From Escherichia phage slur09, in sequence record NC_028840.1: a stretch of DNA of 64,000 nucleotides, one strand, 5' to 3'. Below are positions 49,195 to 57,220 of the stretch, piece after piece (position 1 is the stretch's first letter; each line of letters starts with the position of its first letter). Both the position numbers and the translations under genes were made by a program. The notes below the pieces were generated by a model. The model was not told the DNA's origin and searched no databases. It saw only the letters and a list, made by a program, of their open reading frames with translations.

Positions 49195-49383
49195 GTGGAA
49201 TTATACATAGTTTATGTTGTGTTTATTCAAGATAGAGAATACCCTGATGAATATAAACAAGGATATAGGTTAGCCAGAGCTACTTCTGAAGCCCAAGCTA
49301 TGGATAAGGTGGCAGATTATATGATTACAGTAGAAAACGTACACTATATCGACTACCTTGAAGCCTCAAAAGTAATTGACTAA
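49195..49383 (+). CDS. hypothetical small protein (GTG start)
   Basis: ORF-track ORF 49048..49383 overlaps two tRNAs at its 5' end; in-frame GTG after AGGGGA lies downstream of the tRNAs. Confidence 0.3.
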   Translation: MELYIVYVVFIQDREYPDEYKQGYRLARATSEAQAMDKVADYMITVENVHYIDYLEASKVID

Positions 49384-49392
49384 GGAGACTAT

Positions 49393-49578
49393 ATGTCTAA
49401 GTTTCAAGAACTCAAGCAAGAGCTAGAAGAGTGTGCCTGCCCTGAGTGTAGAGGAATTGGTGAAAGTTCTGATGCAGAAGCAGGAGATACTTTTTGCAAT
49501 ATCTGGGTTTGCCCAAATTGCAATGGTACAGGTATTAATCCTAACTGTGGTATTTCCCTAGATATTGAACGAGGATAA
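49393..49578 (+). CDS. hypothetical zinc-ribbon mini-protein
   Basis: 61 aa; CACPEC...CPNC. Confidence 0.45.
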   Translation: MSKFQELKQELEECACPECRGIGESSDAEAGDTFCNIWVCPNCNGTGINPNCGISLDIERG

Positions 49579-49679
49579 TACCTGTGAAACTAAAAGATTA
49601 TTATATTGGTTGGTTTGTGGGACTAGTAGTAGGATTTTCACTAGGCTATAATATGTATCAACTAATAAACTGATTACAT

Positions 49680-49756
49680 GGGGGTGTAATCGAATTGGCA
49701 TAGGTACTGGACTTAAAATTCAGGTTTTGTGGGTTCGAATCCCACCACCCCTACCA
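49680..49756 (+). tRNA. tRNA with Leu anticodon TAA on a short-variable-arm (type I) scaffold
   Basis: Acceptor GGGGGTG/CACCCCT, A73, D-loop AATTGGCAT, anticodon arm CTGGA-CTTAAAA-TTCAG, 5-nt variable loop, T-arm GTGGG-TTCGAAT-CCCAC. Confidence 0.6.
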
Positions 49757-49772
49757 AATTAAGGAAATAAGA

Positions 49773-49943
49773 TGTATAGACATCCACCTCCGCCAACACG
49801 TCGTTCTAGAGAAGTTATTCTCATGGAATTGACTAAAAACTTCAAGGCAACTCTTGAAGATAGAGATCTAGGCACGGATGAAGACATTGATTTTATTTGT
49901 AGACTATTAAAGATGAAACTGGAGAAACAACATGGCTAATCCT
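49773..49943 (+). CDS. hypothetical small protein (56 aa)
   Basis: ATG after AAGGAAATAAG; below ORF-track length cutoff; stop overlaps the next ORF start. Confidence 0.4.
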
Positions 49944-50138
49944 GAAATTACCGCACAACGTTTCATGCTTAAAGGCATGATTGCTGAGGCAGGTATAACT
50001 CAAGAGGTTGCAGATTTTCATAAGCAATTTCTTGACATTATAACTCTAGCTAAAGAGACTGGAGAAAAAGAACACGGAGCAGCAATTATGGCTATATCTC
50101 TTATTAGTCTAGACTTGGCTGAAGAGTCTGGAGTTTAG
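49932..50138 (+). CDS. hypothetical protein
   Basis: ORF track, 68 aa. Confidence 0.45.
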   Translation: MANPEITAQRFMLKGMIAEAGITQEVADFHKQFLDIITLAKETGEKEHGAAIMAISLISLDLAEESGV

Positions 50139-50168
50139 CTCCTCCAAACAGAATTTTTAAAAATGTAC

Positions 50169-50198
50169 TTGCCTTTTGCTTTAAATTTCTGGTATAAT
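50169..50198 (+). promoter_or_regulatory. T5-type promoter (TTGCCT -35)
   Basis: TTGCCT-N18-TATAAT. Confidence 0.5.
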
Positions 50199-50228
50199 AG
50201 TTATATAAATTGATGAAGGAGTTAACGA

Positions 50229-50504
50229 ATGCAAAATCGTGTTATAGCAACTGGTATTGAAAGTGCAATCTGTAAATCCTGGGAAGGCTGGGAAGGTGAG
50301 ATTGAATGGCTTTATTTCTACGATGTAGAACTTCTGCCGGAAGTTAAAACTAAATGTGTTGAAGCTGGCATGGCTCCAGATGCAAAAGCTGATATTGATA
50401 TTTCAATGTCTGAACTTAAAGGTCGTGTAATTACTGTTAGTGATGAGGGTGAAGAAGTTTTCGAACTTCCATTCTCCTTAACTGTCACTCCTAAGTTCGA
50501 CTAA
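50229..50504 (+). CDS. hypothetical protein
   Basis: ORF track, 91 aa. Confidence 0.5.
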   Translation: MQNRVIATGIESAICKSWEGWEGEIEWLYFYDVELLPEVKTKCVEAGMAPDAKADIDISMSELKGRVITVSDEGEEVFELPFSLTVTPKFD

Positions 50505-50527
50505 CTAATACAGCACTGAGCAAGTTC

Positions 50528-50567
50528 TTTAAAATTTGACTTGCTCAGTGCCATAAAACTTGATATA
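50528..50567 (+). terminator. long hairpin (13-bp stem GCACTGAGCAAGT/ACTTGCTCAGTGC) whose 3' arm overlaps the -35 of the next promoter
   Basis: Perfect 13-bp inverted repeat; TTGACT -35 lies inside the 3' arm; TATAAT follows 17-18 bp later. Confidence 0.55.
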
Positions 50568-50634
50568 ATATTTATCTAATTTGGAAACATATTTAAAAGT
50601 GTTTAAATGAGGCTTTTTGAATACTTCTAAATAT

Positions 50635-50722
50635 GGGCGTTTATTCCGTAAGTGGTAGCGGAGGGGATTGTAAATCCCTGGTCATTGCGACTCGAGTGGT
50701 TCGACTCCATTAACGCCCACCA
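50635..50722 (+). tRNA. tRNA-Tyr (anticodon GTA), long variable arm
   Basis: Acceptor GGGCGTT/AACGCCC, A73, anticodon arm GGGGA-TTGTAAA-TCCCT, long variable arm, encoded CCA. Confidence 0.75.
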
Positions 50723-50739
50723 AATTAAAGGTAAAGGAT

Positions 50740-51231
50740 ATGTATATTGATCGGATAATTCAAGAAGCTGCAAATAGGGGTATTATACAGTTGGGTTCAC
50801 CCGCTGATATAAACAAAGATCTAATATTAGAAAGCCTCACATTTGGTACAGCTAACTTTGGTCGCGATAGTAATCGTCGATATAGCTTGAAGTTATCTGC
50901 ACTATCTTTTATCAAGTATAACAAAAGTATTGGAGAAAAATCCAGCTGTGGTTTTATTTACGCAATAACTAACCCAGCTTGGGATAACTATGTAAAAATT
51001 GGTATGTCTTCTGATCCTAAAACAAGATTAGGAAATTACCAAACCTATTCTCCTTTACGTGATTATAAGTTAATACATTGGTCATTTTGGTTTAATGCTA
51101 GAGAAGCGGAGAAAATGCTTCATAATAGCTTTCCTGAACGGCTTAATGAATGGGTAGTGTTAGACAGAGGTGTAGACGAAATACTTTCCGAGTTTAACAA
51201 TCTATCCAATAAGCAATTTAAGTCCTGTTAG
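50740..51231 (+). CDS. T5orf172-domain protein (GIY-YIG-like, putative homing endonuclease family)
   Basis: 163 aa; GFIYAITNPAWDNYVKIGMS...RL.NYQTYSP motif shared with ORF 54257..54730. Confidence 0.6.
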   Translation: MYIDRIIQEAANRGIIQLGSPADINKDLILESLTFGTANFGRDSNRRYSLKLSALSFIKYNKSIGEKSSCGFIYAITNPAWDNYVKIGMSSDPKTRLGNYQTYSPLRDYKLIHWSFWFNAREAEKMLHNSFPERLNEWVVLDRGVDEILSEFNNLSNKQFKSC

Positions 51232-51298
51232 ACAAACTGGTAAAGTCACTACCCTTTCAAGGTAGGATTTGCGGGTTCGATCCCCGCACAGGACGCCA
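51222..51298 (+). tRNA. tRNA-Glu (anticodon TTC)
   Basis: Acceptor GTCCTGT/ACAGGAC, anticodon arm CTACC-CTTTCAA-GGTAG, T-arm GCGGG-TTCGATC-CCCGC; 5' end overlaps the last codons of ORF 50740..51231. Confidence 0.75.
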
Positions 51299-51306
51299 AT
51301 TTCTGC

Positions 51307-51383
51307 ATTCCTAGAGTGTTACTGGACAGCATGTCGGTCTCCAAAACCGTACGGTCTAGGTTCGAGTCCTAGTAGGTTTGCCA
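51307..51383 (+). tRNA. tRNA-Trp-like (anticodon CCA) with two U-U mismatches in the acceptor stem
   Basis: Anticodon arm CGGT-CTCCAAA-ACCG, T-arm CTAGG-TTCGAGT-CCTAG, acceptor ATTCCTA/TAGGTTT pairs 5 of 7. Confidence 0.45.
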
Positions 51384-51389
51384 AAATTT

Positions 51390-51464
51390 GCACCTTTAGC
51401 TGAGATGGATTAGCGCTTGCCTGAAGAGCTTGAGAGGTTCGTTCGATTCGAACAGGGTGCACCA
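51390..51464 (+). tRNA. tRNA-Phe (anticodon GAA)
   Basis: Acceptor GCACCTT/AGGGTGC, anticodon loop CTGAAGA, T-arm GTTCG-TTCGATT-CGAAC; anticodon stem has two U-U mismatches. Confidence 0.6.
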
Positions 51465-51481
51465 ATTTGAAGGAGCTGCTG

Positions 51482-51754
51482 ATGCATCCTGAAAACTTCT
51501 TTATTTACTGCGCTGATAAGTCGCTGAAACGTAGAATTAACAAAGTCTATCATTATCGTGCTAGTCAACAGCCTTATGTATATGCTTTTGACGGTGATCA
51601 CATTCCATTAGAACAATTATCCTGTGATTACATGATATTGAAGAACTTTGATGAGACAAAGATCTCAAGCGTTCATAATCGACAGAATCCATTAACGTGG
51701 AAATATAAGAAGAAAAAGAAAGGCATCAAATTCTTAAAAAATGTAGTTGCTTAG
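51482..51754 (+). CDS. hypothetical protein
   Basis: ATG after AAGGAG RBS (ORF track starts at 51467). Confidence 0.45.
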   Translation: MHPENFFIYCADKSLKRRINKVYHYRASQQPYVYAFDGDHIPLEQLSCDYMILKNFDETKISSVHNRQNPLTWKYKKKKKGIKFLKNVVA

Positions 51755-51775
51755 TTTCCAAAAGTTCTGTATAAT
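51747..51775 (+). promoter_or_regulatory. T5-type promoter
   Basis: TTGCTT-N17-TATAAT. Confidence 0.6.
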
Positions 51776-51804
51776 AATTACATAAATTGAACTGGAGAAG
51801 CAAC

Positions 51805-52029
51805 ATGACAGAACAAGAATTGAATGAACGTAAGCTGGTAATGCTTCGCTTACTAAATATTTTCTCTGGTATGGACGGTGGAATTGACTTTGTTCATCTA
51901 CGTTCTTTCGTAGAAGAAGCCGAAGGCGAATCTATCACTAAAATCCTTAAACACATGGGATTACTTTTAGATGCTGCTAATGTGGCTACTGAATATAAAC
52001 TAGAAGATCTACCGAAGCGTGTTAAATGA
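51805..52029 (+). CDS. hypothetical protein
   Basis: ATG after GGAGAAG (ORF track starts at 51787). Confidence 0.45.
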   Translation: MTEQELNERKLVMLRLLNIFSGMDGGIDFVHLRSFVEEAEGESITKILKHMGLLLDAANVATEYKLEDLPKRVK

Positions 52030-52217
52030 AACGATTAGTTAGATTTAAGTGTTGTGGTTCTGAACATATTTTCACATATCTTCGTGAATTTAAAATGTGT
52101 GATTGTGGTAAATCAGGCTATGACTCAGGAGACGGGTTCTACACCCGTACTCTAGGGAACTTCAATGATCTAGAATTTGAAGATCTCGAAAAACAAGATA
52201 AATCGACCGTTGGCTGA
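52026..52217 (+). CDS. hypothetical zinc-ribbon mini-protein
   Basis: 63 aa; CC...CDC pattern; 3' end overlaps the start of tRNA-Cys. Confidence 0.45.
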   Translation: MKRLVRFKCCGSEHIFTYLREFKMCDCGKSGYDSGDGFYTRTLGNFNDLEFEDLEKQDKSTVG

Positions 52218-52279
52218 ATGGCTTAGGCGAAGGATTGCAAATCCTTTTTATGTGAGTTCAAATCTCATGCGGTCGTCCA
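52204..52279 (+). tRNA. tRNA-Cys (anticodon GCA)
   Basis: Acceptor CGACCGT/GCGGTCG, anticodon arm AAGGA-TTGCAAA-TCCTT, T-arm GTGAG-TTCAAAT-CTCAT, encoded CCA. Confidence 0.75.
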
Positions 52280-52281
52280 AT

Positions 52282-52422
52282 TTGCTGAAAGAATTGTTAA
52301 ATCAATTCAGGCACGCGTAGGAACACTGTCTCCGTAATTGAAAGATGAGGCACGGTTTGGAGAGGTATGCTGCTACACGCTACGGTGCTAACTCCGTCTA
52401 GGTGAAAATCCTAGTCAGCAAT
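52282..52422 (+). ncRNA. tRNA-like RNA (about 141 nt) with 7-bp acceptor stem, D-like arm, T-arm and a roughly 59-nt insertion enclosed by an extended anticodon-type stem
   Basis: Perfect acceptor TTGCTGA/TCAGCAA; T-arm CTAGG-TGAAAAT-CCTAG; D-like hairpin GAATT...AATTC; 9-bp stem GCACGCGTAG/CTACGGTGC enclosing 52321-52379; no encoded CCA. Confidence 0.4.
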
Positions 52423-52431
52423 ATAAATTTA

Positions 52432-52514
52432 GGGTCGTTAGCCAAGCGGTTTGGCGGTGGACTGTTAATCCATGTCGAAAGACAACGTAGGTTCGAATCC
52501 TACACGGCCCGCCA
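52432..52514 (+). tRNA. tRNA with Asn anticodon GTT on a long-variable-arm (type II) scaffold
   Basis: Acceptor GGGTCGT/ACGGCCC, G73, D-arm GCCA/TGGC, anticodon arm GTGGA-CTGTTAA-TCCAT, 13-nt variable arm with GTC-GAAA-GAC hairpin, T-arm GTAGG-TTCGAAT-CCTAC. Confidence 0.6.
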
Positions 52515-52616
52515 AATTCTGTGTAGAGTTAAGTAAACCGGTAGCCAACCAGCTATCATTGCTGACATCGAATTCAGCCACAGATACCATTTTCATTAAT
52601 AACTGAGGAAACAAGC

Positions 52617-52802
52617 ATGTCCAAGAATGTAATTGCACAGTTAGAAGTTCATCGTGATAGCACTATCAACAATATTGAAGTTGAGAAGAAATACATCGAA
52701 GAACTTAAACATGATATACTAGTAAGTCTTAATCGTCTTAATGTACGAAAAGACTTTCTTAAAGAACTTAATGCAGCTATTGAAAAACTCAAAGCTGAGT
52801 AA
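52617..52802 (+). CDS. hypothetical protein
   Basis: ORF track, 61 aa. Confidence 0.45.
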   Translation: MSKNVIAQLEVHRDSTINNIEVEKKYIEELKHDILVSLNRLNVRKDFLKELNAAIEKLKAE

Positions 52803-52811
52803 ATGAATTAT

Positions 52812-52888
52812 GCGACCGGGGCTGGCTTGGTAATGGTACTCCCCTGTCACGGGAGAGAATGTGGGTTCGAATCCCATCGGTCGCGCCA
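52812..52888 (+). tRNA. tRNA-Asp (anticodon GTC)
   Basis: Acceptor GCGACCG/CGGTCGC, anticodon arm CTCCC-CTGTCAC-GGGAG, T-arm GTGGG-TTCGAAT-CCCAT, encoded CCA. Confidence 0.75.
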
Positions 52889-52914
52889 AACTAAACTAGC
52901 ACGAGAAATATGCT

Positions 52915-53262
52915 ATGATTAATGCTAAAGAAGAATTGTTACTTGCCCTAAAGAATACTAATTCTGAAGTTAAGTGTATTAAGATAGAATTCGGTTATTA
53001 TGGGGACAAAGAAGTTTGGGTATTACCCGTAGGTTATACAGAAAAAGATATTGAAGATTTTCTAAATAATCTAGACTTTAAATATGATTCTGGTTTCGGT
53101 GGACAATTGCTTTATGGTAACGTATGGTTTACTGATGGAACTTGGTTAGAACGTGGTGAATATGATGGTTCTGAATGGTGGGAATATAAGACTACACCAG
53201 CAATTCCAGAGGAATGTCGAACAATTAATGGTGAAGTAGATCATACATTACTATTAAATTAA
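52915..53262 (+). CDS. hypothetical protein
   Basis: ORF track, 115 aa. Confidence 0.5.
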   Translation: MINAKEELLLALKNTNSEVKCIKIEFGYYGDKEVWVLPVGYTEKDIEDFLNNLDFKYDSGFGGQLLYGNVWFTDGTWLERGEYDGSEWWEYKTTPAIPEECRTINGEVDHTLLLN

Positions 53263-53384
53263 CAAAATTTCAGTGCAGAACACGGAGCTAGCAATTCGGA
53301 AGTGCCGACTCATGATAGGCTGCCTATGTACTTGCGAAGCGGTCGTGTCCAAGACTCGGACTCTTGCACTGAAAACAATCAAAC

Positions 53385-53505
53385 ATTCTAGCGTGGTTGA
53401 TGGGGAAACCAGCTTGGCTAGGGCAGAAGCTCGTTCGATTCGAGTGAAAGAATGGTTCTCGTAAGTCCGCACAAGTGATAACAGGTTCGAGTCCTGTCTA
53501 GAATG
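53385..53505 (+). ncRNA. tRNA-like RNA (about 121 nt) with a roughly 53-nt insertion in the anticodon arm
   Basis: Perfect 7-bp acceptor ATTCTAG/CTAGAAT; D-arm TGGT/ACCA with GG-containing loop; anticodon-type stem CTTG/CAAG enclosing 53418-53470; T-arm ACAGG-TTCGAGT-CCTGT. Confidence 0.4.
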
Positions 53506-53514
53506 ACACTATAA

Positions 53515-53637
53515 AGTTTACTTATTATGTAGGTTCCGATAGATCGGCGGGTCTATTCTGGCATTTAAGAGAGGTCTCGCAAACTTCTTTGTCAGCCGTG
53601 GGGTTGATAGCCTCCAGGTGGCCTACACAATAAGTAA
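53515..53637 (+). repeat. 17-bp inverted repeat (TTTACTTATTATGTAGG / CCTACACAATAAGTAAA, one mismatch) flanking an 89-bp core
   Basis: Arms at 53515-53531 and 53621-53637 are reverse complements with a single mismatch; no ORF inside. Confidence 0.6.
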
Positions 53638-53654
53638 ATTTATTAAAAATTCAT

Positions 53655-53683
53655 TTGCTATTCTGCTTAATTATCTGTATAAT
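53655..53683 (+). promoter_or_regulatory. T5-type promoter
   Basis: TTGCTA-N17-TATAAT. Confidence 0.6.
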
Positions 53684-53715
53684 ATATTTTATAAAGTGAA
53701 GAGAAGGAAAGCAAA

Positions 53716-53913
53716 ATGAAAAAAGTTTTACTGCTGTCTGTATTCCTACTCACTGGTTGTTTTAAACTTGACTCAACCATTAATAAAGAGTATGAATTTG
53801 CTAAAAATTTCTGTGGCGGAGAGAGTAATATAAAGAATTTCTACATATATAGTACAATTCCTAGTACCGTTTATTGTGTAGACGGACGAATTATTAATAT
53901 TCCTCCACAATAA
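53716..53913 (+). CDS. small lipoprotein (lipobox LLTGC)
   Basis: 65 aa; MKKVLLLSVFLLTGC signal peptide with lipobox Cys. Confidence 0.55.
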   Translation: MKKVLLLSVFLLTGCFKLDSTINKEYEFAKNFCGGESNIKNFYIYSTIPSTVYCVDGRIINIPPQ

Positions 53914-53922
53914 AAGAATTAA

Positions 53923-53998
53923 CAGTGCGTAGCGCAGTTGGTAGCGTGGGAGCCTTGGATGCTTCGGGTCGCAGGTTCGAGTCCTGCCGCACTGACCA
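53923..53998 (+). tRNA. tRNA-Pro (anticodon TGG)
   Basis: Acceptor CAGTGCG/CGCACTG, D-arm GCGC/GCGT, anticodon arm GGAGC-CTTGGAT-GCTTC, T-arm GCAGG-TTCGAGT-CCTGC, encoded CCA. Confidence 0.8.
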
Positions 53999-54004
53999 AA
54001 CAAT

Positions 54005-54082
54005 TGCGGGTTAGATCTCTGGTAGAGATCGCTAGTCTCATAAGCTAGAAAGAGGTAGGTTCGATTCCTGCACCCGCTTCCA
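54005..54082 (+). tRNA. tRNA with CAT anticodon (Met/Ile2/initiator candidate), U1-U72 mismatch
   Basis: Acceptor TGCGGGT/ACCCGCT (first pair U-U), D-arm GATC/GATC, anticodon arm CTAGT-CTCATAA-GCTAG, T-arm GTAGG-TTCGATT-CCTGC. Confidence 0.6.
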
Positions 54083-54102
54083 TTTTAATAGAGGATTTCG
54101 AA

Positions 54103-54267
54103 ATGAAAGTATTTCGATTAGTAGTAAGTGACAAACGTTTAGGTAAGAATACCTCAAAATCCTTACTTGCTCATTATGGAAAAGACGAGAAAGAAGTAAT
54201 GGCGGAGTTTGGGATTAATCACCCTTACTTGAAAGTTCACTCTATTAAGGAAGTTTATGCTTATTAA
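54103..54267 (+). CDS. hypothetical small protein (54 aa)
   Basis: ATG shortly after the tRNA; below ORF-track cutoff; stop overlaps the start of ORF 54257. Confidence 0.35.
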   Translation: MKVFRLVVSDKRLGKNTSKSLLAHYGKDEKEVMAEFGINHPYLKVHSIKEVYAY

Positions 54268-54730
54268 CAAGGTGCTTCAAGCTCTAGATCTTCCAGAGCT
54301 CTTTACTATTACCGACTCCTTAATACATCGGTATATGGAAAAGTATAATGAAATCTCTGGTAAAAAAGGGAAACTAAAATCCTCAGAATTTAAGTTCTGT
54401 TATAGAATGGCAGCATTAAACCTCTTAAAGTATAAGAGGGAGCATAAAATTCCTATAACAGAAGGATTTGTCTATGTAATAGGTAATCCAGCATGGCCTG
54501 GACTATATAAGATAGGCATGACAGTAGATGTGAACGAAAGACTGTCTAGTTATCAAACATATTCGCCTTATCGTGATTACAAGTTATACCATTTCAGATT
54601 CTCCTCAGACAAGAGAAGAACTGAAAAAGCATTACATAACCTTCTGAAAGACTACAAAATATCAGGAGAATGGTTTGAAGTACCTCTGTTAGACGCCTTC
54701 AAACTATTAGTAGAAAATTTGGATTGCTAA
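54257..54730 (+). CDS. T5orf172-domain protein (GIY-YIG-like, putative homing endonuclease family)
   Basis: 157 aa; GFVYVIGNPAWPGLYKIGMT...RLSSYQTYSP motif, paralog of 50740..51231. Confidence 0.6.
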   Translation: MLINKVLQALDLPELFTITDSLIHRYMEKYNEISGKKGKLKSSEFKFCYRMAALNLLKYKREHKIPITEGFVYVIGNPAWPGLYKIGMTVDVNERLSSYQTYSPYRDYKLYHFRFSSDKRRTEKALHNLLKDYKISGEWFEVPLLDAFKLLVENLDC

Positions 54731-54798
54731 CTCAACTGGATAAGAGTACCGGACCTTTAATCCGTCAGTTCTGGGTTCGAATCCCAGGCAATCCACCA
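54721..54798 (+). tRNA. tRNA-Lys (anticodon TTT)
   Basis: Acceptor GGATTGC/GCAATCC, D-arm ACTC/GAGT, anticodon loop CCTTTAA, T-arm CTGGG-TTCGAAT-CCCAG, encoded CCA. Confidence 0.8.
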
Positions 54799-54816
54799 AT
54801 TTCAAGAAAAACTCAG

Positions 54817-54845
54817 TTGCTTGATGCTTAATTTCTTGTTATAAT
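54817..54845 (+). promoter_or_regulatory. T5-type promoter driving a 1.2-kb ORF-free tRNA/ncRNA transcript
   Basis: TTGCTT-N17-TATAAT; no ORF of 60 aa or more until 56023. Confidence 0.6.
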
Positions 54846-55083
54846 ATTTATATAAATTGATGAGGAGAAATCCTCATCATAGTTCACTAAGGTATTAGCT
54901 CGACCTAGGACTGGCTGCCAAAAAGCACGATCCCTTCTACTTGGGAGGAGTTCTAGATTAGTCCACTAGATTCAGTGGCAACTGAGTAGTGTATCGGGTT
55001 TGCGAGATGACGTAGTTCCTTCCGCTCGAAGCGAAGGTGCTGTAGTTACGCCGAGCTAATAGCCTTAGTAAACTAAAGAATTT

Positions 55084-55162
55084 GGGGAATGGGTCTGCAT
55101 GGAGTGGACACCTCGCTTGCACCGAGGACATCAGGACGGTTCGATTCCGTTATTCTCCACCA
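55084..55162 (+). tRNA. tRNA-Ala (anticodon TGC)
   Basis: Acceptor GGGGAAT/ATTCTCC (G3-U70 wobble), anticodon arm CCTCG-CTTGCAC-CGAGG, T-arm GACGG-TTCGATT-CCGTT, encoded CCA. Confidence 0.65.
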
Positions 55163-55167
55163 AATAC

Positions 55168-55244
55168 GCGTGATTGATGGAATTGGCATACATACCGTCC
55201 TTAGAAGTCGGGTTTTGAGGGTTCGAATCCCTTGTCACGCACCA
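55168..55244 (+). tRNA. tRNA with Leu anticodon TAG on a short-variable-arm (type I) scaffold
   Basis: Acceptor GCGTGAT/GTCACGC, A73, D-loop AATTGGCAT, anticodon arm CCGTC-CTTAGAA-GTCGG (one U-U), T-arm GAGGG-TTCGAAT-CCCTT; paralogous to the tRNA at 49680. Confidence 0.6.
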
Positions 55245-55356
55245 AATTTGATGGTCAGAGTAAATTAAACCTACTATCTCGGTTGAGCTGTTTTAATGGG
55301 TTCGAATCCCAGCGAGGCGTAACTGCCTGGTGTGATAGAGGCATCATCTTATTATT

Positions 55357-55447
55357 GGAAGAGCAAATCGAATTGGCGACGAAAACCGCTTGGAAAGTGG
55401 CTGACTGGTAAAACGGCTTGAGAGTTCAAATCTCTCCTCTTCCGCCA
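55357..55447 (+). tRNA. tRNA-Ser (anticodon GGA), long variable arm
   Basis: Acceptor GGAAGAG/CTCTTCC, G73, anticodon arm CCGC-TTGGAAA-GTGG, long variable arm, T-arm GAGAG-TTCAAAT-CTCTC, encoded CCA. Confidence 0.65.
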
Positions 55448-55459
55448 AACAATTTATAT

Positions 55460-55554
55460 GGTAGGTCAATCCAATGGCTGGCGCTGGACTCCGACTTGAA
55501 ATCGGTTGATCGTAGTGATACGGTGTAAGGGTTCGATCCCCTTACCTACCTCCA
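55460..55554 (+). tRNA. tRNA-Ser (anticodon TGA), long variable arm
   Basis: Acceptor GGTAGGT/ACCTACC, anticodon arm CCGA-CTTGAAA-TCGG, long variable arm, T-arm AAGGG-TTCGATC-CCCTT, encoded CCA. Confidence 0.65.
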
Positions 55555-57133: not shown

Positions 57134-57220
57134 GCTGGGTTGGCAGAATGGTTGAATGCACCTGATTTGTAATCAGGAGGAGTAATCCCGTTGCAGGTTC
57201 GAATCCTGTGCCCAGCACCA
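57134..57220 (+). tRNA. tRNA with Thr anticodon TGT on a long-variable-arm (type II, Leu-like) scaffold
   Basis: Acceptor GCTGGGT/GCCCAGC (G1-C72, C2-G71), A73, D-arm GCA-GAATGGTTGAA-TGC, anticodon arm CCTGA-TTTGTAA-TCAGG, 15-nt variable arm, T-arm GCAGG-TTCGAAT-CCTGT, encoded CCA. Confidence 0.6.

What the first reader, a model, noticed from the sequence alone, without database searches (positions are those of the whole stretch)
49680..49756. Leu-anticodon tRNAs with short variable arms (paralog at 55168-55244)
Two paralogous tRNAs of 74-77 nt with a shared AATTGGCAT D-loop and A73 have anticodons UAA and UAG, which read Leu codons UUA and CUA, but only a 5-nt variable loop. All bacterial tRNA-Leu are type II. 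Together with the type II Asn/Thr-anticodon tRNAs this points to an unusual phage tRNA repertoire. UUA is likely a preferred codon in this AT-rich genome.
Basis: partly seen in the sequence, partly recalled or inferred. Interest (0 to 1): 0.55.

Follow-up and report, generated by a model that had tools for sequence, protein, structure and literature searches.

The report
Short-arm leucine tRNAs of T5-like phage
Two working leucine tRNA genes in a T5-like phage lack the long extra arm that leucine tRNAs normally carry, and the same short-arm form turns out to be common across phages and mobile bacterial tRNA gene arrays.

Summary
ARAGORN and Rfam both call tRNA-Leu(UAA) at 49680-49756 and tRNA-Leu(UAG) at 55168-55244. 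Each is 77 nt with an encoded CCA, a 5-nt variable loop (GUUUU), a 3-bp D stem and A73.

The window is a T5-like phage (Tequintavirus). Both genes are routinely annotated tRNA-Leu. GenBank AJ604531 notes that the identical UAA gene becomes an effective amber suppressor when its anticodon is changed to CUA.

Both tRNAs keep the D arm and core of E. coli tRNALeu (U8, G13, A14, A15, G18G19, A20a, A22, U48, A73) and lack only the arm, which published work says E. coli LeuRS does not need. Phage ORFs use CUA 3.8-fold and UUA 2.2-fold more than an E. coli sample.

The form is not T5-specific. A pattern scan found it in at least 120 viral contigs and at least 120 bacterial contigs, the latter mostly in dense tRNA arrays. 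All 20 base pairs covary, U48 is invariant and A73 is present in 97%. Short and long pairs up to 96% identical outside the arm show recent arm loss or gain.

The genes are known. The breadth of the short-arm family seems under-recognised. Leucine charging is inferred, not shown.

The parts
49680..49756 (+). tRNA-Leu(UAA), 77 nt with encoded CCA, short (type I) variable loop; reads UUA/UUG
   Evidence: ARAGORN; Rfam 57.4 bits; layout; 100% identical to tRNAL2 of GenBank AJ604531, which carries the amber-suppressor note
49689..49705 (+). D arm of Leu(UAA): 3-bp stem AUC/GGU and loop G13-AAUUGGCAU-A22, the same layout as E. coli tRNALeu
   Evidence: Compared with leuZ, leuW, leuQ, leuX and leuU read; layout
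49714..49716 (+). Anticodon UAA
49724..49728 (+). 5-nt variable loop GUUUU; its last base is U48, the partner of A15
   Evidence: U48 is invariant in the 115-sequence family alignment
49753..49753 (+). Discriminator A73, followed by the encoded CCA at 49754-49756
   Evidence: A73 is present in 160 of 165 family members
55168..55244 (+). tRNA-Leu(UAG), 77 nt with encoded CCA, short variable loop; reads CUA (and probably other CUN codons); lies 5 nt downstream of tRNA-Ala(UGC)
   Evidence: ARAGORN; Rfam 47.5 bits; annotated tRNAL1 'codon recognized: CUA' in AJ604531; 129 phage records are at least 99% identical
55177..55193 (+). D arm of Leu(UAG): stem AUG/CAU and loop GAAUUGGCAUA
55202..55204 (+). 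Anticodon UAG, in the loop C32-U33-UAG-A37-A38
55212..55216 (+). 5-nt variable loop GUUUU
55241..55241 (+). Discriminator A73, followed by the encoded CCA at 55242-55244

Best explanation
These are two functional phage leucine tRNAs. One reads UUA/UUG (anticodon UAA) and the other reads CUA and probably other CUN codons (anticodon UAG). They are bacterial-type tRNALeu molecules that have lost the hairpin of the long variable arm and kept everything else.

They are transcribed within the T5 tRNA cluster, processed, and charged with leucine by the host LeuRS. That enzyme reads A73 and the D-loop/T-loop/15:48 core, not the anticodon and not the arm. The tRNAs then add decoding capacity for the two Leu codons that this AT-rich phage uses far more than its host does.

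Shown here: the genes, the cloverleaf, the retained identity nucleotides, the codon bias and the family-wide selection. Taken from a database record: in vivo activity of the anticodon-swapped UAA tRNA. Inferred: that the amino acid is leucine, that host LeuRS is the charging enzyme, and that codon supply is the benefit.
For: 1. Two independent tRNA finders call both genes.

2. The D arm matches all five E. coli tRNALeu genes position for position: 3-bp stem, R13, A14, A15, U16, Y17, G18, G19, N20, A20a, N21, A22. U8, U48, A73 and a G1:C/U72 pair are also shared.

3. The review PMC9976931 states that E. coli leucine identity rests on A73, A15-U48, G18G19 and A20a. It states that neither the anticodon nor the long arm is needed, and that variants lacking the arm stay active.

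4. In 115 diverse family members, 98.9% of stem cells are paired against 35-45% when partners are slid. All 20 pairs show double changes, with 909 such cells.

5. U8 and U48 are invariant and A73 is present in 160 of 165 members, although the search pattern did not impose any of them.

6. In the same loci, Ser and Tyr tRNAs keep their long arms: 95 of 96 and 49 of 51, and 38 of 39 and 21 of 22. Bacterial SerRS and TyrRS use the long arm in recognition (established knowledge, partly in PMC9976931), so only the tRNA whose synthetase ignores the arm has lost it.

7. Short-arm and long-arm tRNA-Leu(UAG) pairs are 96%, 93% and 88% identical outside the variable region.

8. GenBank AJ604531 notes that the identical UAA gene becomes an 'effective amber suppressor' when given a CUA anticodon. 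That implies processing, anticodon-independent charging and ribosomal use in E. coli.

9. The UAA gene is at least 99% identical in 291 phage records and the UAG gene in 129.

10. CUA occurs at 16.7 per 1000 codons in the phage against 4.4 in the E. coli sample. UUA occurs at 21.5 against 10.0.
Against: - No aminoacylation result for these tRNAs was found in the literature I could search.
- PMC6614811 reports that E. coli LeuRS could not charge the type I tRNALeu(CAA) of S. coelicolor, and describes the enzyme as charging only type II tRNALeu. Arm-less substrates are therefore not automatically accepted. That tRNA has C48 rather than U48, so it is not the same test.
- The suppressor note does not say which amino acid is inserted.
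- The UAG tRNA has a U.U mismatch in its anticodon stem and A37 where E. coli leuW has G37.
- Codon enrichment is a correlation. PMC10264068 reports, for the phage it analysed, no difference in codon frequency between codons with and without a phage tRNA.
Confidence: 0.85

Rival explanations
1. Counter-defence or replacement role. The main benefit is not codon supply. Instead the phage copies keep leucine decoding going when host tRNALeu is cleaved, modified or depleted during infection. Loss of the arm and the altered anticodon loop (C32, A37, A38) would make the phage copies poor substrates for the host enzymes involved. This can coexist with the best explanation.
For: - Phage tRNAs are known to rescue infection from tRNA-targeting systems such as PARIS, Retron-Eco7 and PrrC (abstracts and discussion text).
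- Some toxins select serine tRNAs (MenT3, abstract), and human SLFN11 cleaves type II tRNAs (title cited).
- Arm loss recurs in several lineages.
- Arm loss is concentrated in mobile tRNA sets.
- The anticodon loop differs from E. coli leuW and leuZ at positions 32, 37 and 38.
Against: - I found no bacterial system shown to target tRNALeu through its long arm.
- Ser and Tyr tRNAs in the same phages keep their arms.
- Simple relaxed constraint would also explain repeated loss, because LeuRS does not need the arm.
Confidence: 0.15
2. The tRNAs are charged with an amino acid other than leucine, so the phage recodes UUA or CUA.
For: The body is atypical for tRNALeu, and E. coli LeuRS failed on another type I tRNALeu.
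Against: - Neither tRNA has G3:U70, the Ala determinant. They have G3-C70.
- Neither has a long arm for SerRS.
- Most other synthetases read the anticodon, which here specifies Leu.
- The full E. coli Leu identity set is present and conserved family-wide.
- The near-identical long-arm relatives are ordinary tRNALeu.
Confidence: 0.03
3. They are decayed or non-functional tRNA-like sequences (pseudogenes), or RNAs with a role outside translation.
For: - The T5 tRNA region contains several tRNA-like stable RNAs of unknown function.
- The UAG tRNA has a stem mismatch and a lower Rfam score.
Against: - The genes are near-identical in hundreds of genomes.
- Orthologous variants show compensatory changes and the family shows strong covariation.
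- The CCA end is encoded.
- The UAA gene has suppressor activity.
Confidence: 0.02

Closest known systems
E. coli tRNALeu isoacceptors (leuZ UAA, leuW UAG, leuQPV CAG, leuX CAA, leuU GAG)
   Same: Same anticodons for UAA and UAG. Same D-arm layout (3-bp stem, R13, AAUYGG, A20a, A22), U8, U48, A73, G1:C/U72, and C2-G71 in the UAG tRNA.
   Different: The host genes are 85-87 nt with a 13-15 nt variable arm, while the phage genes have 5 nt. The phage anticodon loops have C32 instead of U32, and the UAG tRNA has A37/A38 instead of G37/U38. The phage T loop is UUCGAAU against the host's UUCAAGU or UUCGAGU.
Streptomyces coelicolor type I tRNALeu(CAA) (Fan et al. 2019, PMC6614811)
   Same: A bacterial-world tRNALeu with a 5-nt variable loop that coexists with type II tRNALeu and one LeuRS.
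   Different: Its variable loop is ACAGC (C48). A73 is not an identity element for its LeuRS. E. coli LeuRS did not charge it. The phage tRNAs carry the E. coli-type set (A15:U48, A73). I did not test homology between the two.
Animal mitochondrial tRNALeu(UUR/CUN)
   Same: Short variable loop; identity rests mainly on A73 and A14 (PMC9976931).
   Different: The mitochondrial tRNAs are charged by a dedicated mitochondrial LeuRS and have loose, AT-rich structures. The phage tRNAs have canonical D/T loops (G18G19, UUCGA) and must use a bacterial LeuRS.
Engineered minimal E. coli tRNALeu lacking the variable arm (work cited as ref. 53 in PMC9976931)
   Same: Arm-less molecules that remain LeuRS substrates as long as A73 and the D/T-loop tertiary contacts are intact.
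   Different: Those are laboratory constructs. The phage tRNAs are natural, conserved genes.
Long horizontally transferred tRNA gene arrays in bacteria ('L-arrays', PMC8421152; tRNA array units, PMC4758250)
   Same: The bacterial hits for the short-arm Leu form sit in arrays of this kind, with up to 31 tRNAs in 8 kb. Like the T5 cluster, some of these arrays are accompanied by homing endonucleases (HNH genes).
   Different: The main texts of those papers, searched, do not mention the short-arm Leu form. The window is a virulent phage genome, not a chromosomal array.

Membership tests
tRNA (Rfam RF00005) | Covariance-model score above the curated threshold | tested here: met
   57.4 and 47.5 bits against a gathering score of 29; ARAGORN agrees
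tRNA (Rfam RF00005) | Cloverleaf supported by compensatory changes in relatives | tested here: met
   98.9% of cells paired; all 20 pairs show double changes; slid controls give 35-45%
Bacterial (E. coli-type) tRNALeu | Leu anticodon (NAA or NAG) | tested here: met
   UAA and UAG
Bacterial (E. coli-type) tRNALeu | Discriminator A73 | tested here: met
   A73 in both genes and in 160 of 165 family members
Bacterial (E. coli-type) tRNALeu | Core determinants: U8:A14, A15:U48, G18G19 placed four nucleotides after position 13, and A20a | tested here: met
   All are present in both genes. U8 and U48 are invariant in the family without being imposed by the pattern. The list of determinants comes from PMC9976931.
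Bacterial (E. coli-type) tRNALeu | Long (type II) variable arm of more than 10 nt | tested here: not met
   The variable loop is 5 nt (GUUUU) in both genes. E. coli tRNALeu genes are 85-87 nt.
Bacterial (E. coli-type) tRNALeu | Leucylation by the host LeuRS | not testable with these tools
   Only indirect evidence: the suppressor note in AJ604531
Type I tRNALeu (mitochondrial / S. coelicolor kind) | Leu anticodon with a short (4-5 nt) variable loop | tested here: met
Type I tRNALeu (mitochondrial / S. coelicolor kind) | Common descent with those tRNAs | not tested
   No S. coelicolor or mitochondrial sequences were compared. The near-identical long-arm relatives instead point to independent derivation from phage type II tRNALeu.
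Phage and mobile-array short-arm tRNALeu group (delimited here) | Layout 7-2-3-11-3-1-5-7-5-5-5-7-5-7-1 with D loop GAAUUGGNANA, U48 and A73 | tested here: met
   Both window genes match the pattern and align without gaps with 113 members

The most novel reading that the evidence does not exclude
Loss of the long arm from tRNALeu is a recurrent, selected adaptation of phages and mobile tRNA arrays rather than neutral decay. It would produce a leucine tRNA that the host LeuRS still charges but that escapes host factors which recognise type II tRNAs by their arm, such as tRNA-targeting defence nucleases, nucleotidyltransferase toxins or some processing/modification enzymes. As a corollary, enterobacterial LeuRS would have natural type I substrates, contrary to what the LeuRS literature I read assumes.
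Probability: 0.12. Interest if true: 0.75.

Novelty: new variant of a known kind. Interest (0 to 1): 0.5.

Why it matters
[quoted passage not shown] A 2019 LeuRS study treats S. coelicolor as the only prokaryotic case where one LeuRS serves both types, and describes E. coli LeuRS as charging only type II.

The T5 genes, together with the large family found here, suggest that enterobacterial and many other bacterial LeuRS enzymes routinely meet natural arm-less tRNALeu brought in by phages and mobile arrays. This gives three things:
- a ready natural test set for what LeuRS needs from its tRNA;
- a simple explanation of why Leu, but not Ser or Tyr, can lose the arm;
- candidate compact tRNALeu scaffolds.

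It also warns annotators not to discard short tRNA-Leu calls in viral contigs. For this window itself the result is modest, because the two genes are known, annotated T5-group tRNAs.

Tried and rejected
- Single-sequence MFE folding did not give the cloverleaf, with z-scores near -1.3. I set it aside as uninformative for tRNAs and used family covariation instead.
- The promoter/terminator scan of 48800-55500 found no more sites than shuffled sequence, so I make no claim about transcription units from it.
None found a paper describing T5 or any phage tRNALeu as short-armed. The library lacks most older subscription papers on T5 tRNAs, so prior description cannot be excluded.
- The papers on non-canonical tRNAs and tRNA arrays do not mention the feature in their main text.
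- The bacterial Schlafen paper does not show specificity for type II tRNAs, so it does not support the counter-defence idea directly.
It was replaced by two patterns. About 50 hits of each were not in recognisable tRNAs and were excluded.
- Searches failed for technical reasons.
- I considered Ala, Ser, Tyr or His identity and rejected each: there is no G3:U70, no long arm, no G34/U35 and no G-1.

Full report
**What is in the window.** ARAGORN finds 21 tRNA genes between 45.4 and 58.2 kb, all on the + strand. They include tRNA-Leu(UAA) at 49680-49756 and tRNA-Leu(UAG) at 55168-55244. Rfam's tRNA model scores these two at 57.4 and 47.5 bits against a threshold of 29. The region is 96-97% identical to T5-like phages of Salmonella and E. 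coli (Tequintavirus, Demerecviridae). Records such as T5_ev212 annotate both genes as tRNA-Leu.

**Anatomy.** Both genes are 77 nt with an encoded CCA:

- UAA: GGGGGUG UA AUC GAAUUGGCAUA GGU A CUGGA CUUAAAA UUCAG GUUUU GUGGG UUCGAAU CCCAC CACCCCU A CCA
- UAG: GCGUGAU UG AUG GAAUUGGCAUA CAU A CCGUC CUUAGAA GUCGG GUUUU GAGGG UUCGAAU CCCUU GUCACGC A CCA

The UAG tRNA has one U.U mismatch at 30:40. A T5-like variant, phage SpoonbillGilly, has G.U there and compensatory changes in three other stems. The two genes share 52 of 74 positions.

**Comparison with the host's leucine tRNAs.** I read all five E. coli K-12 tRNALeu species. They are 85-87 nt. They share with the phage tRNAs a 3-bp D stem, an unpaired R13/A22, the loop AAUYGGNAN, U8, a terminal U48 in the variable region, A73 and G1 paired with C or U72. 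The phage tRNAs are therefore bacterial-type tRNALeu without the arm hairpin. They are not ordinary type I tRNAs that happen to carry a Leu anticodon.

A 2023 review (PMC9976931) summarises that E. coli leucine identity depends on A73, the A15-U48 pair, G18G19 and A20a. It says identity does not depend on the anticodon or the long arm, and that variants lacking the arm remain active. Every listed determinant is present in both phage tRNAs.

**Evidence of function.** GenBank AJ604531 (Bacteriophage 5 tRNA gene region) contains a gene 100% identical to the window's UAA tRNA. Its note reads: 'codon recognized: UUA; replacement of the anticodon with CUA sequence converts this tRNA into effective amber suppressor'. 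This implies that the molecule is processed, charged independently of its anticodon and used by E. coli ribosomes. That behaviour fits LeuRS, although the inserted amino acid is not stated. The UAG gene is annotated there as tRNAL1, 'codon recognized: CUA'. The UAA gene is at least 99% identical in 291 phage records and the UAG gene in 129.

**Codon usage.** I compared 47 window ORFs of at least 120 codons (13,869 codons) with ORFs called the same way in 50 kb of E. coli K-12.

| Codon | Phage (per 1000) | E. coli sample (per 1000) | Ratio |
|---|---|---|---|
| CUA | 16.7 | 4.4 | 3.8 |
| UUA | 21.5 | 10.0 | 2.2 |
| CUG | 17.4 | 56.4 | 0.3 |

UUA is the commonest Leu codon in the phage, at 24% of Leu codons. 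The two phage tRNAs match the two most enriched Leu codons.

**The form is widespread.** I built a pattern from the Leu-type D loop, a UAA/UAG anticodon, and a spacing to the T loop that only a 5-nt variable loop allows. It matches just the two genes in the window.

Contig sizes ranged from 4 to 343 kb and came from many metagenomes.
- ARAGORN found 1,683 tRNAs in those loci, including 184 short tRNA-Leu (156 distinct sequences; anticodons UAG > UAA > CAA > GAG) and 60 long ones.
- In one-genome-per-species bacterial assemblies the same pattern again hit at least 120 contigs. Of these, 104 had an ARAGORN short tRNA-Leu.
- The bacterial hits are nearly always in dense tRNA arrays, with up to 31 tRNAs in 8 kb. 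They occur in Acidobacteriota MAGs and in isolates of Chryseobacterium, Tenacibaculum, Aliikangiella, Microbulbifer, Nostoc and Calothrix.
- Cultured coliphages outside the T5 group also have the form. Felixounavirus Alf5 has three short tRNA-Leu genes (UAG, CAA, UAA).

**Selection on the family.** I aligned 115 sequences, none more than 88% identical to another. They align without gaps.

- With the cloverleaf imposed, 98.9% of cells are paired, against 35-45% when partners are slid by 1-3 columns.
- All 20 pairs show changes on both sides, with 909 such cells.
- No shuffle out of 500 reached the observed covariation score.
- U8 and U48 are invariant and A73 is present in 160 of 165 members. 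None of these positions was specified by the search pattern.

**How common it is.** Two class-neutral scans required only U8, the D loop, the anticodon and A37, with no constraint on arm length. After restricting to hits with a recognisable T loop, they gave 7 short against 54 long for UAA, and 40 short against 27 long for UAG. In this sample the short form is the majority for the UAG isoacceptor in viral contigs. The sample is conditional on one D-loop type and on the first part of the database scanned.

**Origin.** Some short and long tRNA-Leu(UAG) genes from different contigs are 96%, 93% and 88% identical once the variable region is removed. One example has ...CCAG-UAUUU-CCGAG... against ...CCAG-UGCGCAAGCAU-CCGAG.... 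The arm has therefore been lost or gained recently, and more than once.

In the same loci Ser and Tyr tRNAs almost always keep their arms: 95 of 96 and 49 of 51, and 38 of 39 and 21 of 22. This fits established knowledge, partly summarised in PMC9976931, that bacterial SerRS and TyrRS use the arm whereas LeuRS does not.

**What remains uncertain.** I found no direct leucylation data for these tRNAs.

- Fan et al. 2019 (PMC6614811) showed that S. coelicolor has a type I tRNALeu(CAA) and that E. coli LeuRS could not charge it. They describe E. coli LeuRS as charging only type II tRNALeu, and they do not mention phages.
- That tRNA has C48, and its own LeuRS does not rely on A73 as an identity element. 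It is therefore a different case, but it shows that arm-less substrates are not automatically accepted.
- Why arm loss is so frequent in phage and array tRNAs is open. Relaxed constraint is the simplest reading. Escape from arm-dependent host factors is possible but unsupported.

**Known or new.** The two genes are known T5-group tRNAs with long-standing annotation. Short-arm tRNALeu as a kind is known from animal mitochondria and S. coelicolor. I could not find, within ten searches of the held library, any recognition that phage and mobile-array tRNALeu are commonly short-armed while keeping the E. coli-type identity set. Older T5 papers are not in the library, so the short arm of the T5 tRNAs may well have been noted in the 1980s.

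**Verdict.** I rate this a new variant of a known kind, of moderate interest.

Noticed in passing
window 57134-57220 (+): tRNA with a Thr anticodon (UGU) and a type II-like body: 87 nt, 15-nt variable arm (GGA-GUAA-UCC), 3-bp D stem with loop GAAUGGUUGAA, and A73. Its acceptor stem (GCUGGGU) resembles E. coli tRNAThr as I recall it from memory; that comparison was not tested here. AJ604531 notes that a CUA-anticodon version is an 'effective amber suppressor', which is unexpected if ThrRS needs the anticodon.
   Followed up: partly
window 52432-52514 (+): tRNA-Asn(GUU) of 83 nt with a 13-nt variable region (GUC-GAAA-GAC plus AAC), a normal 4-bp D stem and G73. It looks like a type I tRNA with an inserted mini-hairpin. 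Its CUA derivative is noted as an amber suppressor.
   Followed up: partly
window 55357-55447 and 55460-55554 (+): Two serine tRNAs (GGA and UGA anticodons) are missed by default ARAGORN and by Rfam at the gathering threshold. ARAGORN finds them at a lowered threshold (-ps90). The first is identical to tRNAS2 of phage 5. BLAST did not align window 55453-55553 to phage 5, where tRNAS1 and ORF trn 2.14 lie.
   Followed up: partly
window 49097-49171 (+): tRNA with a CAU anticodon found by Rfam (40.3 bits) but not by ARAGORN. The corresponding gene in AJ604531 is annotated tRNA-Ile (tRNAI2), while T5_ev212 calls it tRNA-Met.
   Followed up: no
window 44817-44888 (+): Weak Rfam tRNA hit (35.5 bits) about 500 nt upstream of tRNA-Arg(UCU). 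By position it falls within the counterpart of the 785-nt 'RNAX, stable RNA with unknown functions' annotated in phage 5.
   Followed up: no
window 55290-55320 (+): A tRNA 3'-half-like remnant (GGGTTCGAATCCC with flanking complementarity) in the spacer between tRNA-Leu(UAG) and tRNA-Ser(GGA).
   Followed up: no
window 50635-50722 and 55084-55162 (+): tRNA-Tyr(GUA) and tRNA-Ala(UGC) are called by ARAGORN but do not reach Rfam's gathering score, so they diverge from the consensus tRNA.
   Followed up: no
window 55199-55206 (+): The phage tRNA-Leu(UAG) has A37 and C32, whereas E. coli leuW has G37 and U32. A37 also predominates in the short-arm UAG family (CUUAGAA in 74 of 165). G37 is the m1G site in CUN-reading tRNALeu (from established knowledge). 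So the phage tRNA may not depend on that modification.
   Followed up: no
loci L007-L126 and L248-L451 (viral contigs): A number of tRNAs with Ile anticodons, mostly UAU, are 80 nt or longer (17 and 6 cases). This recalls the long-arm 'allo-tRNA' UAU species described in PMC5389517.
   Followed up: no
loci L127-L246 (bacterial genome contigs), e.g. L129, L137, L182, L192: Dense tRNA arrays of 18-23 tRNAs in 8 kb in chromosome-sized contigs of diverse bacteria carry one to four short-arm tRNA-Leu genes alongside long-arm Ser and Tyr tRNAs. Whether these arrays are prophage-borne was not checked.
   Followed up: partly
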